The position numbers and the translations under genes were made by a program. Under the pieces are notes generated by a model. That model was not told where the DNA came from. It did no database searches and worked only from the letters and a program-made list of their open reading frames with translations. 64,000 bases of DNA, taken from the IMG/VR virus record IMGVR_UViG_3300045988_173642, positions 1 through 64,000 of that record. One strand, 5' to 3'. How positions within the stretch are numbered: position 1 is the first letter of the stretch; the number at the start of each line of letters is the position of its first letter. Origin of the DNA: a virus. Shown in pieces: positions 18,366-35,521 of the stretch.

Positions 18366-19544
18366 CTATCCTTTCGCCTTGAAGTTGTATATCGGTTTTA
18401 TGCGCTTCACGACTTCCACTGTATCGCCTATAAGCGATTCAATTTCTTCGGCCGACTTATATGCCATTGGCGACTCGTCGATGGTTGACTCGCAGACGGA
18501 TGTAGAGTATATGCCCTGCATTTCCTTGCTGTATTCCTCCATAGTAAGCGTTTCCTTTGCCTTGGCTCTCGACATAAGGCGACCTGCACCGTGAGGAGCC
18601 GAGCAAAGCCAATCCTCGTTGCCTTTGCCACGGCATATCAACGAACCATCGCGCATATTGAGCGGAATGATGAGCCGCTCGTCCTTTTCAGCTCGCACGG
18701 CTCCTTTTCGGATGATACTTGAGTGGATGTTGAAATAGTTGTGTCTGGTGGTGAAGAAATCCTCGAACGGCATTTGAAGCCCACGAAGGATAGTCATTGC
18801 TATATTCCATCTGTTCTCGTCGGCAAAATCCTGGCAGACGTGCGCAGCAAAATTGTAAGCGTTAAGGTCTTCGCCTTCAAGATAGGCGAGGTCGGAAGGT
18901 ACCGTACCTAAGCGACGCAACGTATTGTTAATCTCTCTCTCCAAACCATACCTCTTTAAGTCTTCGATGATGCGGTTGCGCTCCTCTCTGTGGTTCACAT
19001 TCTTCTGGGCTAAGTGTTGGAAATAGTTGCACACCTTCACACCGAGATTACGACTTCCCGAATGTACAACAAGATACTTACAGCCCTGCTCGTCCTCGTT
19101 AAGTTCGATGAAATGGTTGCCACCACCGAGAGAACCAAGCGAACGTTCGATATAGTCGAGGTCGAAGCAACCTTCTGTACGTTCGTGCAAAACGTCCAAA
19201 CAACGTAACATTAACGGACTCATTTCTTTTAGTTTGGACTTTTCGTAAACGTCAAATCCGCTCGGCACCGACTCGTTGATGATTCGGTCGAGAAGCGAAA
19301 GGTTTACATCCTTCTTGCCGAGCTGAACTACCAACATGCCACAGCCTATATCTACGCCTACGGTATTTGGTACAACCTTGCCGGCAATCTTAATTACCGT
19401 GCCAATCGTGCTCCCCTTGCCGGCATGACAGTCGGGCATAATGCGTATCTGACAGTCGCGATAAGCCTCGCTCGCTGCCATTCTCTTAATCTGTTCCTTC
19501 GCCTCCTGCTCAATGGTCTTGGCGAAAATCTTTACGTTCTTCAT
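18366..19544 (-). CDS. rtcB: RtcB-family RNA 3'-phosphate/5'-OH ligase
   Basis: Conserved RtcB strings are present: MPDCHAGKG, GGGNHFIEL, VVHSGSRNLG and SAPHGAGR. Length is 392 aa. Confidence 0.9.
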   Translation of the reverse strand: MKNVKIFAKTIEQEAKEQIKRMAASEAYRDCQIRIMPDCHAGKGSTIGTVIKIAGKVVPNTVGVDIGCGMLVVQLGKKDVNLSLLDRIINESVPSGFDVYEKSKLKEMSPLMLRCLDVLHERTEGCFDLDYIERSLGSLGGGNHFIELNEDEQGCKYLVVHSGSRNLGVKVCNYFQHLAQKNVNHREERNRIIEDLKRYGLEREINNTLRRLGTVPSDLAYLEGEDLNAYNFAAHVCQDFADENRWNIAMTILRGLQMPFEDFFTTRHNYFNIHSSIIRKGAVRAEKDERLIIPLNMRDGSLICRGKGNEDWLCSAPHGAGRLMSRAKAKETLTMEEYSKEMQGIYSTSVCESTIDESPMAYKSAEEIESLIGDTVEVVKRIKPIYNFKAKG

Positions 19545-24422: not shown

Positions 24423-26105
24423 TTAGATGATGCCGTTCTTACGTTTGTAGTCCTCGATGGCCTTCTTTGAACCTACGGGGTCGGCATCATTCCATGTGGG
24501 ATAGCCAGTCTGAGCCTTTTTCATCTTCACGCTCTCGCCATTGTTGGCCGGGGCTGCCCCAGCGTTGGTCTCTTCGCCTGCCTCGTTGGTCAGATCGTCA
24601 ATCTGAGCCTGCATGTCGGCAATCTTCTGCTCTGCCGTGGCAAGCGCGTCCTTAGCACCCTTTAAGTCGGCTTCAGCCTGCGCCTTTGCCTCGGTGAGAG
24701 CATTCATCTCGTCGTTCTTCTTGGCAATGGCCTCTGTGTGTTGGGCGTTAAGTTCTTCAATTTCTCTACTATGAGCCTCCTTTGCTTCGGCCAGTGCGTT
24801 CTCCGCGACGGTCTTGGCATCGTTAGCTGCGGTTACTTGTGCGGAGAGTTCGTCAACCTTGCCCTGCATATCTGCGAGAGCCGTCTCCGCTGTGGTGGCT
24901 TTCTGCTCAGCATCGGCCACCTTTTGCTCAGCTTCCTTCATGTTGGCTTCGAGTTTGTCAAGAAGCGAGGCGTTCATATACGCGCCCTCTTCCGTCACGG
25001 CAATCTCTCCAGCCTTCAATCCGCAAGCGGCATTGATAAGTGGATAATTCTCCATATTGAAATTTTGGTTGGTTGCTGTCTGTTTGTTCTGTGGTTCGTT
25101 CTGAGGGTCGTTCTGTGGTTCGCTCTCTGGTTCATTCTGTGGTTCCGCTTCTGGTTCCGATGCCTCGCGCTTGATAAGTTCTGCTCTGCCATCGTAAAGG
25201 GCAAACGCGCGTTGCACCACTCCCATGAATGTTGACTGACCATCGGCGAGAATACCCTTCACGTCTTCGGCATTAAATACCTTACCGTGCAAATGTTCGT
25301 CTTTGGCATTTGGGAAAGCCTTCTTGATGTCGGCGCGGAACTCAACACCCAATTCAGCCAATTCCTTGACCAACTCCTCGTCATCGTCATTGTTAGCAAG
25401 GTCGCGATAGGCCTTGTTCTTGTCAAACGACTCTGGGTCGTAAGCCTCGTGGTAAGTCTCGTCGGTGAACTGATTCTTTGAGCCATCGGCCAACGTGTAG
25501 AAAGCAGCCATCACGCCGATACAACCCATTTGGTCTTTCGGATTCATATAGTAGACCTCGTCACATAGCGAAGCGAGATACATACCGGCCGAATCGCAAA
25601 GGCCGTCAATCAAGGCAATCACCTTCTGACCTTTCGAGTGGGCATATTCAATGGCAAGCGCATAATCGTTTTTGGCCCATGCTGAACCGCCCGGCGTGTT
25701 GATGATGAACACGTGGCCGCGACAAAGCGGATTGTCAGCGGCACGCATCATCATGTCGCGATGGTCGATAGATCCATACGAGCAGGCACCACCGTTGCGC
25801 GTGATTGGCCCGTCAATCGCAAGCACTGAGACGAAGGGGAAGTTCTGTGCATGTTCGTCGTCATCCGGAAGCGTCAAAACCCAATTGCCTCTGACCTGCG
25901 TGCCATCCTCCGAAATCTGATATTCCTCCGGGTAATAAAGGTTGCCTTCTCGGTCTTCTGCGGAGACAAAGCCAGAAGTCTTCTCTGGCTTGCTGAATGC
26001 CGCATGGGTGTTCAGATTCTGCTCAAGCGACTTGCGGAAACCATGAACGAAGTCAGGACTCACCATCCACTTCCGTTCGGTGATAATCTCATAAAGTCCT
26101 TTCAT
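24423..26105 (-). CDS. prohead protease (S49/ClpP-like) fused to a coiled-coil scaffold domain
   Basis: The string INTPGGSAWA...IALIDGLCDSAGMYLAS...MGCIGV fits the S49 serine-peptidase pattern. The C-terminal half is a long Ala/Glu/Lys coiled coil. Confidence 0.75.
   Translation of the reverse strand: MKGLYEIITERKWMVSPDFVHGFRKSLEQNLNTHAAFSKPEKTSGFVSAEDREGNLYYPEEYQISEDGTQVRGNWVLTLPDDDEHAQNFPFVSVLAIDGPITRNGGACSYGSIDHRDMMMRAADNPLCRGHVFIINTPGGSAWAKNDYALAIEYAHSKGQKVIALIDGLCDSAGMYLASLCDEVYYMNPKDQMGCIGVMAAFYTLADGSKNQFTDETYHEAYDPESFDKNKAYRDLANNDDDEELVKELAELGVEFRADIKKAFPNAKDEHLHGKVFNAEDVKGILADGQSTFMGVVQRAFALYDGRAELIKREASEPEAEPQNEPESEPQNDPQNEPQNKQTATNQNFNMENYPLINAACGLKAGEIAVTEEGAYMNASLLDKLEANMKEAEQKVADAEQKATTAETALADMQGKVDELSAQVTAANDAKTVAENALAEAKEAHSREIEELNAQHTEAIAKKNDEMNALTEAKAQAEADLKGAKDALATAEQKIADMQAQIDDLTNEAGEETNAGAAPANNGESVKMKKAQTGYPTWNDADPVGSKKAIEDYKRKNGII
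25089..25160 (-). repeat. six tandem 12-nt units inside the protease-scaffold gene
   Basis: The units ctgtggttcgtt / ctgagggtcgtt / ctgtggttcgct / ctctggttcatt / ctgtggttccgc / ttctggttccga encode an (E/N)P(E/Q)x linker (EPEAEPQNEPESEPQNDPQNEPQN). Confidence 0.85.
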
Positions 26106-26167
26106 TGTCTGTGTAACTATTGTTTTGTGTTAGTATTCGGCTGGTCTTCACGACCATTGCTTCATCG

Positions 26168-26238
26168 TTGCGGAAGAAGGAGTCGAACCTTCGTCTCTTA
26201 ATGGGCGATAAGCGAGCTTCCATCTGCTCCATTCCGCG
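26168..26238 (-). tRNA. initiator-tRNA-like gene with non-canonical anticodon loop
   Basis: Manual fold: CGCGGAA UG GAGC AGAUGGAA GCUC G CUUAU CGCCCA UUAAG AGAC GAAGG UUCGACU CCUUC UUCCGCA A. It has a C1xA72 mismatch and an A11:U24 pair, as in bacterial tRNA-fMet. The anticodon loop is 6 nt (or 8 nt if U31-U39 is open) and has no CAU in position. Confidence 0.55.
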
Positions 26239-26383
26239 ATTTGTTTGTTGATTCAAACGATTGCTCGTTTATTGTCTTGTTTGATTATTCATTTAAACAT
26301 TTGAACAATCAAACATTTGTTCAGTGCAAAAGTAGAAAAGGCAGCATCTGCGAACAAGGACATAAAAAGCGGCGTAAGCGCAC

Positions 26384-26421
26384 AAAAAAAGCCCCGCCAT
26401 CCGTGATTCGGACAGCGGGGC
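26384..26421 (-). terminator. rho-independent terminator
   Basis: On the minus strand, GCCCCGC...GCGGGGC is followed by UUUUUUU, directly after the stop at 26448. Confidence 0.7.
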
Positions 26422-26447
26422 TGAACAATGAAAAAAACGATGTAGAA

Positions 26448-34615: not shown

Positions 34616-35521
34616 ATGGAATTACGTCATCTACGCTCTTTCGTCAGTGTCGCCGAAACGCTTTCTTTTTCTTTGGCAGCCATGCGATGTTTTGTCACTC
34701 AGTCGGCCATCAGTCAACACATCAAAGCGCTGGAAGACAAACTTGGCTGCAAACTATTTATTCGCTCTTCACACGAAATCACACTAACGGAAAGCGGAGC
34801 GGCCTTGTTGCCGCGTGCAAAAGAGATTCTCAAACAAGCTGAAGACTGCAAGGAACACATTAACGCCATCAACAACTGCATGAAGGGTGAGCTGCGCATC
34901 GGCGTTGGCTCGTTTATCGCACCATACATCCGCGAGGCAGCACTCCGCTTCATGGAGCGATACCCTAACGTGCGGCTGAATGCGGAACTTACCAAGGCAA
35001 CCAGTCTCAACCGCTTGCTGAAGGAACACACCATCGACCTGGCATTCACGATGAACACGGCCTACCAGGATGAAGGCATTGAAACACAACCTTGCATCCC
35101 CTTCCATATCTACACCGTCATGCGAAACACGCATCCGCTGACGCGCCTGCCGAAGGTGACGTATGAGGATTTGTTGAAGCATAGCGTGATTATGCCAGAT
35201 GTAGGTGACCGCTTGTTCAACACTTTTCAACAATACCTGCAACACGACCTGACGAAACTAAATGTCAAGTGCATCGTCAGTGACCCAGACGAAGACTTGG
35301 CCATTGTGGAACAAACGTCCTACATTACCTTCATGTCGAAACTCTACATGAAGCAACATCCAACGTTGGCGGCACGCCCTATCGTTGGCCTGGAACACGA
35401 ATTAATGAGCAACGCGCATTGGATGCAAGATGTGCCAATGAAACGCTCAGCACAAATTTTTCTTGACATCATCCGACAGGAGGTGGTGCCCTACATTAAA
35501 GAACTGGAAAAACTCTACTGA
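34616..35521 (+). CDS. LysR-family transcriptional regulator
   Basis: The N-terminal wHTH string LRHLRSFVSVAETLSFSLAAMRCFVTQSAISQHIKALEDKLGCKLF is typical of LTTRs, as is the 301-aa length. Confidence 0.85.
   Translation: MELRHLRSFVSVAETLSFSLAAMRCFVTQSAISQHIKALEDKLGCKLFIRSSHEITLTESGAALLPRAKEILKQAEDCKEHINAINNCMKGELRIGVGSFIAPYIREAALRFMERYPNVRLNAELTKATSLNRLLKEHTIDLAFTMNTAYQDEGIETQPCIPFHIYTVMRNTHPLTRLPKVTYEDLLKHSVIMPDVGDRLFNTFQQYLQHDLTKLNVKCIVSDPDEDLAIVEQTSYITFMSKLYMKQHPTLAARPIVGLEHELMSNAHWMQDVPMKRSAQIFLDIIRQEVVPYIKELEKLY

What the first reader, a model, noticed from the sequence alone, without database searches (positions are those of the whole stretch)
26168..26238. Phage-encoded initiator-tRNA look-alike with a broken anticodon loop
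The 71-nt minus-strand sequence folds as a cloverleaf with a perfect T arm (GAAGG-UUCGACU-CCUUC), a D arm (GAGC-AGAUGGAA-GCUC) identical in its stem to E. coli tRNA-fMet, and U8. It also has the two hallmarks of bacterial initiators: a C1xA72 mismatch and an A11:U24 pair.

The anticodon arm is aberrant. The stem is CUUAU/UUAAG, with a U-U at 31-39 and no G-C run. The loop is CGCCCA, which is 6 nt, or 8 nt if 31-39 is open. There is no U33 and no CAU at positions 34-36. The 3' end reads ACGA instead of ACCA.

Possible interpretations are a decaying tRNA gene, a one-nt assembly error, or a functional tRNA-like decoy or mimic. A decoy could, for example, target host nucleases that cut initiator tRNA anticodon stem-loops, as VapC-type toxins do. 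That would fit with the RtcB RNA-repair ligase encoded 7 kb away.
Basis: partly seen in the sequence, partly recalled or inferred. Interest (0 to 1): 0.6.

Follow-up and report, generated by a model that had tools for sequence, protein, structure and literature searches.

The report
Non-decoding tRNA relic kept by phage
A gut-bacterium phage carries a tRNA-shaped RNA that descends from its relatives' start-codon tRNA, can no longer read a codon, yet has been conserved as tightly as a working tRNA, so it probably now serves as a cutting or stability signal at the head of the capsid-gene message.

Summary
ARAGORN calls tRNA-??? and Rfam tRNA scores 42.9 bits at 26168-26238(-). It is the only tRNA-like gene in this complete 100-kb phage.

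It is not an assembly error: 24 assemblies from several projects share the same odd anticodon arm. It descends from an initiator-type tRNA-Met(CAU) that 43 of 80 related phages carry at the same spot, about 60 nt upstream of the prohead-protease gene. Other relatives have lost the tRNA without trace.

In this clade the anticodon arm was remodelled. The stem has 4 bp plus U·U, the loop has 6 or 8 nt, CAU is pushed against the stem, and all three initiator G:C pairs are gone. The centre of the loop varies C/U between close relatives, so decoding is implausible.

The element is not decaying freely. Only 6 of 71 sites vary, against 43% of synonymous sites, similar to the working tRNA in sister phages.

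Best reading (about 45%): a tRNA-shaped RNase P/Z processing or 5'-end element of the late operon. The same genome holds four mini-tRNA elements noted earlier in this scan, which also recorded anticodon-less tRNA mimics in other phages. A trans-acting mimic linked to RtcB is not excluded. Expression could not be tested.

The parts
26168..26238 (-). 71-nt tRNA-shaped RNA gene (C1 = 26238, discriminator A73 = 26168). It derives from an initiator-type tRNA-Met.
   Evidence: ARAGORN tRNA-???. Rfam RF00005 42.9 bits. Family model R1 58.1 bits. Syntenic with canonical tRNA-Met in 43 relatives.
26197..26212 (-). Remodelled anticodon arm CUUAU-CGCCCA-UUAAG. The stem has 4 bp plus U.U. The loop has 6 nt (26207-26202), or 8 nt if U.U is open. 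The displaced CAU is at 26203-26201. Position 26204 is C or U among clade members.
   Evidence: Sequence. Structural alignment with canonical relatives and host initiators. 30:40 changed G:C to A:U and 31:39 changed G:C to U.U. Polymorphism.
26176..26192 (-). T arm GAAGG-UUCGACU-CCUUC. T-loop position 59 (26182) is C or U among clade members.
26214..26229 (-). D arm GAGC-AGAUGGAA-GCUC with A11:U24, A14 and G18-G19.
   Evidence: The stem is the same as in Bacteroidales initiator tRNAs.
26390..26422 (-). Intrinsic terminator of the upstream gene (14-bp stem followed by a T run). It separates the element from the preceding transcription unit.
   Evidence: Conserved in clade members.
26327..26358 (-). 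Candidate Bacteroidota-type promoter: CTTG at 26358-26355, a 20-nt spacer, then TACTTTTG (fits TAnnTTTG) at 26334-26327. It would start a transcript about 80 nt upstream of the tRNA-like element.
   Evidence: Read from the sequence. The motif is recalled from established knowledge of Bacteroidota promoters and was not tested statistically. Canonical relatives have TAATTTTG about 14 nt upstream of their tRNA.
26239..26320 (-). Variable 5' leader that would be removed by RNase P. It has two predicted hairpins.
   Evidence: Fold. About 21-26% of sites vary within the clade.
26106..26167 (-). 62-nt leader between the tRNA-like element and the protease ATG. It contains the hairpin UGGUC-GUGAA-GACCA (26156-26142). 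It is nearly invariant in the clade.
   Evidence: 1 of 62 sites varies, P = 2e-7 against the intergenic rate. 36 nt of it are deleted in L126 and L127.
24423..26105 (-). 560-aa prohead (S49-type) maturation protease, with a possible scaffold part. It is the first gene downstream.
   Evidence: PHROG 53, E = 7e-21. Weak Pfam Peptidase_S49 match. 3250 homologues.
18366..19544 (-). RtcB RNA ligase, 6.6 kb downstream on the same strand. It co-occurs with the tRNA or tRNA-like element across the family.
   Evidence: Pfam PF01139, 207.5 bits. Co-occurrence.

Best explanation
The element is a tRNA-shaped RNA that descends in place from the initiator-type tRNA-Met(CAU) gene of this phage family. That gene sits at the head of the late (prohead protease and following genes) transcript.

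In this sub-lineage the anticodon arm was rebuilt so that it cannot decode. The acceptor stem, D arm, T arm and all elbow-forming nucleotides were kept.

I propose that it is retained because host tRNA-processing enzymes still recognise its shape. RNase P would cut at C1 and remove the variable leader of about 80 nt. RNase Z or 3' trimming would cut after A73. Together these cuts would define the 5' end of the almost invariant 62-nt leader of the protease mRNA and release a stable tRNA-like RNA. On this view it is a full-size counterpart of the four mini tRNA-like elements elsewhere in the same genome, and of plant-mitochondrial t-elements.

Shown here: homology, synteny, remodelling of the anticodon arm, intact cloverleaf, and purifying selection after the remodelling. 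Inferred: transcription from the upstream promoter, cleavage by RNase P and RNase Z, and that this processing is the selected function.
For: Origin:
- 43 of 80 related phages have a canonical tRNA-Met(CAU) at the same place, and the odd form is confined to one clade with 100/100 support.
- Phage and Bacteroidales initiator tRNAs share GAGC/GCUC with A11:U24, a 1x72 mismatch and the variable region AGGUC.

Loss of decoding:
- The loop has 6 or 8 nt, there is no U33 in the window, and CAU abuts the stem.
- None of the three initiator G:C pairs remains.
- The central loop base flips between C and U among close relatives.
- Genes of this genome start with ATG, so there is no private start codon.

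Still constrained:
- All 24 clade members keep the arm.
- 6 of 71 sites vary, against 239 of 560 third codon positions (p = 2e-9) and 55 of 212 upstream intergenic sites (p = 0.0014).
- The trough in variation lies exactly over the element and the downstream leader, with variable DNA on both sides.
- The ML partition rate is 0.60 against 2.15 for third positions.
- Control: the working tRNA in 43 sister phages has 23% variable sites against 77% at third positions.
- The two common polymorphisms lie in loops.

Structure:
- 97.6% of cells are paired across 25 sequences (0 of 500 shuffles as high).
- Two double compensatory changes are specific to this lineage: 7:66 and 30:40, both G:C to A:U.

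Context:
- The element lies between a terminator plus promoter and the protease gene.
- The part upstream of the predicted RNase P site is variable, and the part downstream is nearly invariant.
- The same genome has four acceptor/T-arm mini-elements on the same strand (earlier notes e1-3550041, e1-3464869).
- tRNA-less relatives keep no remnant, so useless copies do not linger.
- t-elements are a precedent for tRNA-like processing signals (PMC1920247).
Against:
- RNase P and RNase Z need only the acceptor/T-arm half. Yet the D arm and anticodon arm are as constrained as the top half (4 of 39 versus 2 of 32 variable sites). Pure processing does not obviously require that.
- Sister lineages do without any tRNA here, so the role is dispensable.
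- Three clade members carry uncompensated stem mismatches: A11U in L133, G22A in L134/L135, and G52A in L126. This hints at some relaxation of constraint.
- Low diversity could in principle reflect a local recombination sweep rather than selection.
Confidence: 0.45

Rival explanations
1. Trans-acting tRNA mimic. The processed, uncharged, initiator-shaped RNA accumulates late in infection. It acts as a decoy, sponge or inhibitor for a host factor that binds initiator tRNA, for example a tRNA-targeting defence nuclease. It would work alongside the phage RtcB ligase that reseals cut tRNAs.
For: - The whole L-shape, including the D and anticodon arms, is constrained, not only the top half.
- The formylation and initiator body determinants are kept: C1xA72, G2:C71, C3:G70, A11:U24.
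- Under the most parsimonious alignment, the segment lost from the loop is A37-A38-C39. This spans the bond that enteric VapC toxins cut in tRNA-fMet (A38/C39, as cited in PMC4105405).
- RtcB co-occurs with the tRNA or tRNA-like element: 11 of 14 versus 2 of 18 near-complete genomes, Fisher p = 0.0002.
- Phage tRNAs are known to counter anticodon nucleases (PMC10264068, PMC11464382).
- This scan has recorded other phage tRNA mimics without a usable anticodon (e1-303313, e1-3908856).
Against: - A nuclease that recognises the anticodon stem-loop would not be expected to bind this one, which no longer resembles the host's UUGGG-CUCAUAA-CCCAA.
- The RtcB association rests on only 3 phylogenetically independent contrasts and has exceptions in both directions.
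- No candidate host target was identified.
Confidence: 0.2
2. Neutral relic. The element is a recently inactivated tRNA-Met pseudogene with no function, and it has simply not yet had time to decay.
For: - The family loses this tRNA readily, with at least 3 to 5 independent losses.
- Three uncompensated stem mismatches occur within the clade.
- The anticodon lesion is what a first inactivating hit would look like.
Against: - Every sampled member of a clade whose protease third codon positions are 43% polymorphic shares the lesion. Yet only 8.5% of the element's sites vary.
- The constraint equals that on working copies in sister phages.
- The trough is sharply local.
- The lineage-specific G30:C40 to A30:U40 change kept the altered arm paired.
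- tRNA-less relatives show clean loss, not lingering wrecks.
Confidence: 0.12
3. Still a working, non-canonical methionine or initiator tRNA. MetRS still reads the retained CAU in an 8-nt loop, and the RNA still donates (f)Met in initiation or in some non-ribosomal reaction.
For: - CAU is retained in all 24 sequences.
- The body determinants for formylation are retained.
- The constraint equals that of a working tRNA.
- From memory, not checked because the paper is not held: Schulman and Pelka 1983 reported that MetRS tolerates some changes in loop size.
Against: - No nucleotide lies between CAU and the stem.
- There is no purine 37.
- U33 is replaced by C in half of the clade.
- All three G:C pairs that mark initiators for the P site are lost.
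- A11:U24 is broken in L133.
Confidence: 0.08
4. Initiator tRNA with a changed anticodon that defines a private non-AUG start codon for phage genes. Earlier notes of this scan proposed this for other phages.
For: The element descends from an initiator and has a non-CAU sequence at the centre of the loop. Leads came from e1-4681490, e1-2911753 and e1-4439753.
Against: - The loop does not have 7 nt.
- Its central base differs (C or U) between near-identical phages.
- The protease, the following ORF and essentially all other genes start with ATG behind A-rich leaders, and there is no set of ATG-less genes.
Confidence: 0.02

Closest known systems
Bacterial initiator tRNA-fMet, and the canonical initiator-type tRNA-Met(CAU) of the sister phages at the same locus
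   Same: Homologous body. It has a 1x72 mismatch, G2:C71, C3:G70, A11:U24, the D stem GAGC/GCUC, a T arm, discriminator A73, no encoded CCA, and the same genomic slot upstream of the protease gene.
   Different: The anticodon arm has 4 bp plus U.U instead of 5 bp. None of the three G:C pairs remains. The loop has 6 or 8 nt instead of 7. CAU is displaced by two positions. Position 37/38 is missing. The variable region has 4 nt instead of 5.
Plant-mitochondrial t-elements (Forner et al. 2007, PMC1920247), and the mini tRNA-like elements recorded by this scan in this and other phage genomes
   Same: A tRNA-like fold that cannot decode and sits next to an mRNA end or between genes. It is proposed to be a cis signal for RNase P and RNase Z. 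Four such mini-elements lie at about 74.2, 74.3, 75.5 and 82.6 kb of this genome.
   Different: This one is a full-size cloverleaf with D and anticodon arms that are themselves conserved. Its descent from a working tRNA at the same site is directly visible. Cleavage has not been shown.
Phage tRNAs with anticodon-loop changes that escape host anticodon nucleases (van den Berg et al. 2023, PMC10264068; T5 tRNA-Lys versus PARIS, PMC11464382)
   Same: A phage-encoded tRNA that differs from the host's mainly in the anticodon stem-loop. The phage also carries an RNA repair ligase.
   Different: Those tRNAs keep a 7-nt loop and still decode. This one almost certainly does not.
tRNA pseudogenes
   Same: A tRNA-derived sequence with a disabling lesion in the anticodon loop. 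Standard finders flag it as undetermined.
   Different: It is conserved well below the neutral rate after the lesion, with compensatory changes.

Membership tests
tRNA (Rfam RF00005) | Cloverleaf with acceptor, D, anticodon and T arms that scores above the family threshold | tested here: met
   42.9 bits against a gathering score of 29. 97.6% of structure cells are paired in the family alignment.
tRNA (Rfam RF00005) | 7-nt anticodon loop with U33 and purine 37 that presents a 3-nt anticodon | tested here: not met
   ARAGORN reports a 2-nt 'anticodon'. The loop is CGCCCA (6 nt), or 8 nt if U.U is open.
tRNA (Rfam RF00005) | Nucleotides for the tertiary fold (U8, A14, G18-G19, R15:Y48, G53:C61, T54-Psi55-C56) | tested here: met
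   All are present in the sequence.
Bacterial initiator tRNA | Mismatch at 1x72 and A11:U24 | tested here: met
   C1xA72 and A11:U24. Host Bacteroidales initiators have U1xU72 or C1xA72.
Bacterial initiator tRNA | Three consecutive G:C pairs at 29-31:39-41 | tested here: not met
   The pairs are U:A, A:U and U.U. Host initiators have three G:C pairs and canonical phage copies have two.
Bacterial initiator tRNA | CAU at positions 34-36 | tested here: not met
   CAU is present but occupies the last three loop positions, next to the stem.
t-element-like processing signal | Non-decoding tRNA-like fold within a transcript, next to an mRNA end | tested here: met
   It lies between a promoter/terminator and the protease gene on the same strand.
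t-element-like processing signal | RNA ends map to the borders of the element (RNase P / RNase Z cleavage) | not testable with these tools
tRNA pseudogene | Evolves at the neutral rate after inactivation | tested here: not met
   6 of 71 variable sites against 43% at third codon positions and 26% in the upstream intergenic region. The ratio to the synonymous rate is like that of the working tRNA.
Nuclease-evading phage tRNA (PMC10264068) | Retains decoding while the anticodon loop is mutated at the nuclease site | tested here: not met
   The loop length and the position of CAU are incompatible with normal decoding.

The most novel reading that the evidence does not exclude
The RNA is a trans-acting mimic of initiator tRNA. 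It is an uncharged, uncleavable look-alike made in large amounts from the late promoter. It titrates or blocks a host defence factor that attacks or senses initiator tRNA, and it works together with the co-occurring phage RtcB ligase. That would be a natural case of a phage converting its own tRNA gene into an RNA decoy.
Probability: 0.15. Interest if true: 0.8.

Novelty: new variant of a known kind. Interest (0 to 1): 0.5.

Why it matters
Phage tRNA genes are usually discussed as codon suppliers or as replacements for tRNAs cut by host defences. Here a family of about 100-kb gut Bacteroidales phages shows all three fates of one tRNA gene at one locus: a working initiator-type tRNA, clean loss, and a version that has lost decoding but is conserved as strongly as the working copy.

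That third state is direct evolutionary evidence that a tRNA body can be kept for a job other than translation. It supplies a visible intermediate between a real tRNA and the anticodon-less tRNA-like punctuation elements seen in this and other phages, and in plant mitochondria.

It is also a clean, small target for experiments on RNase P/Z-dependent mRNA maturation in Bacteroidota phages, or alternatively on RNA decoys in the tRNA-centred arms race between phages and hosts.

Tried and rejected
- GenBank phages: a near-identity search found nothing. By protein, only about 28% identical Flavobacterium phage proteases turned up.
There was therefore no read-level check and no RNA ends.
- tRNAscan-SE is not available. 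ARAGORN and Infernal were used instead.
- Two of my own patterns were mis-specified and found nothing: wrong gap length and a gap that was too short.
- Assembly error: rejected.
- Private start codon: rejected (plus the loop polymorphism).
- Antisense target for the loop: ATGRGCG sites in the genome are near chance (17 on one strand and 27 on the other, against about 12 expected per strand). None is a plausible gene start. A 6-of-7 complementarity between the loop and the leader hairpin is within chance expectation, and that stretch is deleted in L126 and L127.
- Protein-coding explanation for the conservation: a 55-aa ORF runs through the element (26256-26089, minus strand). Rejected, because 6 of the 7 variable sites fall on first or second codon positions and change the residue (read).
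- attP site: rejected. There is no long identity to host initiator tRNA 3' halves, and earlier notes report no integrase.
- Remnants of the tRNA in tRNA-less relatives: none by local alignment against shuffles or by the family covariance model.
- Minimum-free-energy folding does not recover the cloverleaf and was not used.
- Winther and Gerdes 2011 and Schulman and Pelka 1983 are not held. The VapC cut site is cited through PMC4105405. The MetRS loop-size point is from memory only.

Full report
**1. What is there**

On the minus strand, 26238->26168 reads as a complete cloverleaf:
- acceptor CGCGGAA/UUCCGCA with C1xA72
- U8
- D arm GAGC-AGAUGGAA-GCUC with A11:U24, A14 and G18-G19
- G26
- anticodon arm CUUAU-CGCCCA-UUAAG
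- a 4-nt variable region, AGAC
- T arm GAAGG-UUCGACU-CCUUC
- discriminator A

ARAGORN reports tRNA-??? with a two-base "anticodon". Rfam's tRNA model scores 42.9 bits against a threshold of 29, E = 8.9e-6, over model positions 1-71. The window is the first 64 kb of a complete 99,985-bp IMG/VR virus record with direct terminal repeats, and this is its only tRNA match.

Two details need amending. CAU is present but displaced. The non-CCA 3' end is normal for this family and for most of the Bacteroidales initiator genes sampled.

**2. Context**

The element lies in a 342-nt intergenic region. Upstream is a strong intrinsic terminator (26422-26390). Next comes a Bacteroidota-type promoter candidate: CTTG, 20 nt, then TACTTTTG at 26334-26327, read. 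About 80 nt of leader with two hairpins follows, and then the tRNA-like element. After it come 62 nt that include a small hairpin, and then the ATG of a 560-aa S49-type prohead protease (PHROG 53, E = 7e-21). A 429-aa ORF follows the protease.

Other genes confirmed nearby on the same strand are RtcB (18366-19544, 207 bits), a GH108 lysin, YopX, ThyX, dUTPase and a nucleotide kinase. Earlier notes of this scan assign the genome to a Prevotella/Segatella phage-plasmid. I did not test that assignment.

**3. Relatives**

The protease recovers 80 related IMG/VR loci of about 50-110 kb. ARAGORN finds the following about 60 nt upstream of the protease gene:
- a normal tRNA-Met(CAU) in 43 loci
- the same odd tRNA-??? 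in 3 loci
- nothing in 34 loci

The canonical copies are of initiator type. They have a 1x72 mismatch (mostly A1xA72), A11:U24, the variable region AGGUC, and the anticodon arm CUUGG-CUCAUAA-CCAAG, which has two of the three G:C pairs. Bacteroidales chromosomal initiators sampled from 81 genomes read UGCGGGG..GAGC..GCUC-G-UUGGG-CUCAUAA-CCCAA-AGGUC.., with all three G:C pairs. So the family carries a phage version of the host initiator tRNA, and the window's element is its homologue.

On a protease tree the odd form is one clade (100/100) on a long branch (0.26). It is nested among lineages with the canonical tRNA (L010, L011) and lineages that lost it (L005 and L079 by precise excision; L007-L009). 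The tRNA was lost at least 3 to 5 times in the family. Complete genomes without it have no tRNA anywhere and no recognisable remnant.

**4. Not an assembly error**

A pattern scan of metagenome contigs added three members. The protein database shows that the clade is much larger, with 27 clusters at 88-96% protease identity and then a gap to 78%. Fetching contigs for 12 of these clusters brought the total to 24 sequences from IMG/VR, ENA and Logan samples. Every one has CTTATCGC[C/T]CATTAAG.

**5. What changed**

A structural alignment and a covariance-model alignment show the following changes relative to the canonical copies:
- 7:66 changed from G:C to A:U. This is a double change specific to this lineage.
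- The bulged U in the D stem is absent.
- The variable region is one nucleotide shorter.
- 30:40 changed from G:C to A:U. This is a second double change specific to this lineage.
- 31:39 changed from G:C to U.U.
- The loop is CGCYCA.

The most parsimonious alignment keeps C-U-C-A-U and places two extra bases 5' of it. It deletes A37-A38-C39, so that CAU abuts the 3' strand.

No G:C pair of the initiator signature is left, and no purine follows the "anticodon". The base equivalent to U33 is C in about half of the clade and U in the rest. A loop whose central base flips between near-identical phages is not reading a codon.

The idea of a private start codon, raised by earlier notes of this scan for other phages, fails here. 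Essentially all genes, including the virion genes, start with ATG behind A-rich leaders.

**6. Is it decaying?**

Within the clade I counted variation by region.

| Region | Variable sites | Parsimony changes per site |
|---|---|---|
| tRNA-like element | 6 of 71 | 0.18 |
| Upstream intergenic | 55 of 212 | 0.45 |
| Downstream 62-nt leader | 1 of 62 | 0.016 |
| Protease codon position 1 | 99 of 560 | 0.28 |
| Protease codon position 2 | 75 of 560 | 0.24 |
| Protease codon position 3 | 239 of 560 | 0.93 |

- The sliding window shows a trough exactly over the element and the leader. Both flanks have 12-16 variable sites per 60 nt.
- Fisher tests give p = 2e-9 against third positions and p = 0.0014 against upstream intergenic DNA.
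- An edge-proportional partition model gives relative rates of 0.60 (element), 0.91 (upstream), 0.08 (leader) and 2.15 (third positions). The gamma shape for the element is extreme, meaning a few hot sites and the rest frozen.
- As a positive control, the working tRNA-Met across 43 sister phages has 23% variable sites against 77% at third positions. That ratio is 0.30, against 0.20 for the odd element.
- The two frequent polymorphisms are in loops: the loop centre at 26204 and T-loop position 59 at 26182.
- The other four variable sites are singletons. G26A is harmless. A11U, G22A and G52A each break a pair.
- Both halves of the molecule are constrained: top 2 of 32, bottom 4 of 39.

A free-running pseudogene is therefore unlikely, though slightly relaxed constraint is possible.

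**7. Mechanism**

Any RNA with an intact acceptor/T-arm stack and D/T elbow is expected to be a substrate for RNase P and for the 3' tRNA-processing enzymes. This is established knowledge of these enzymes and was not tested here.

The pattern of conservation fits this. The part upstream of the predicted RNase P site is variable. The element and the leader that would become the mRNA's 5' end are conserved. The same genome carries four acceptor/T-arm mini-elements on the same strand at about 74.2-82.6 kb (earlier notes e1-3550041 and e1-3464869). These are read as processing signals akin to plant-mitochondrial t-elements (PMC1920247).

I therefore favour a cis role in maturation or stabilisation of the late transcript, at about 45%. 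The main weakness is that this role does not obviously require the conserved D and anticodon arms.

**8. Rivals**

*Trans-acting mimic or decoy (about 20%).* The full L-shape conservation fits it. So does the loss of the A38/C39 region, which enteric VapC toxins cut in tRNA-fMet (cited via PMC4105405). It also fits the co-occurrence of RtcB with the tRNA or tRNA-like element: 11 of 14 versus 2 of 18 near-complete genomes, p = 0.0002. However, that association rests on only 3 independent contrasts and has exceptions in both directions. Phage RtcB ligases and phage tRNAs are both viewed as answers to tRNA-cleaving defences (PMC7824862, PMC10264068, PMC11464382). Against it, the anticodon stem-loop no longer resembles the host's.

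*Other rivals.*
- Neutral relic: about 12%.
- Still-charged odd tRNA: about 8%.
- Private start codon: about 2%.
- The remainder is unassigned.

**9. Novelty**

Phage tRNA-like elements and non-decoding tRNA mimics have been recorded by this scan in other genomes, and t-elements are known from mitochondria. What is new here is a full-size, initiator-derived, non-decoding tRNA whose descent from a working gene at the same site is documented, together with its continued selection. I class it as a new variant of a known kind, with moderate interest.

Noticed in passing
window 18366-19544 (-), and relatives L002-L081: RtcB co-occurs with the tRNA or tRNA-like element across the phage family: 11 of 14 versus 2 of 18 near-complete genomes, Fisher p = 0.0002. 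Only 3 phylogenetically independent contrasts exist. Some relatives have two RtcB copies (L031, L032, L036), and L042 and L044 keep only a C-terminal remnant.
   Followed up: partly
window 26106-26167 (-): The 62-nt leader between the tRNA-like element and the protease ATG is almost invariant in the clade (1 of 62 sites), whereas the corresponding leader of canonical-tRNA relatives is 60% variable. It contains a hairpin (26156-26142) and a 5-codon mini-ORF, ATG AAG CAA TGG TCG TGA, directly after the element. L126 and L127 lack 36 nt of it.
   Followed up: partly
G000 about 74193, 74310, 75450 and 82609 (minus strand, beyond the window's end): Four acceptor/T-arm mini tRNA-like elements with T loops TTCGATT, TTCGACT or TTCAAGT. 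Each is followed by a discriminator base and then C. Earlier notes of this scan had already recorded them, and a simple T-arm scan re-found them here.
   Followed up: partly
L025 and L069 (about 2867-2939); L033: Some canonical phage tRNA-Met copies have A1:U72 paired (L025, L069) or A1xC72 (L033) instead of A1xA72. The initiator-type end is therefore not uniformly kept in the family. One subgroup has the loop UUCAUAC instead of CUCAUAA.
   Followed up: no
L091 / L089 (Bacteroidales MAG contig PWLF01000245.1, 7.4 kb): A sediment Bacteroidales MAG carries, besides a normal initiator tRNA on another contig (L092), a second initiator-like tRNA with the phage-type two-G:C anticodon arm CUUGG-CUCAUAA-CCAAG on a short contig. 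This may be a phage or plasmid fragment.
   Followed up: no
window 34616-35521 (+): A full-length LysR-family transcription regulator (HTH_1 plus LysR_substrate) is encoded on the opposite strand inside the phage genome.
   Followed up: no
window 26239-26320 (-): The leader upstream of the element is specific to this clade. It contains a predicted 14-bp hairpin (UGUUUGAUUGUUCA...UGAAUAAUCAAACA), a second hairpin (AAACGAGCAAUCGUUU), and repeated CAAATGTTT motifs.
   Followed up: no
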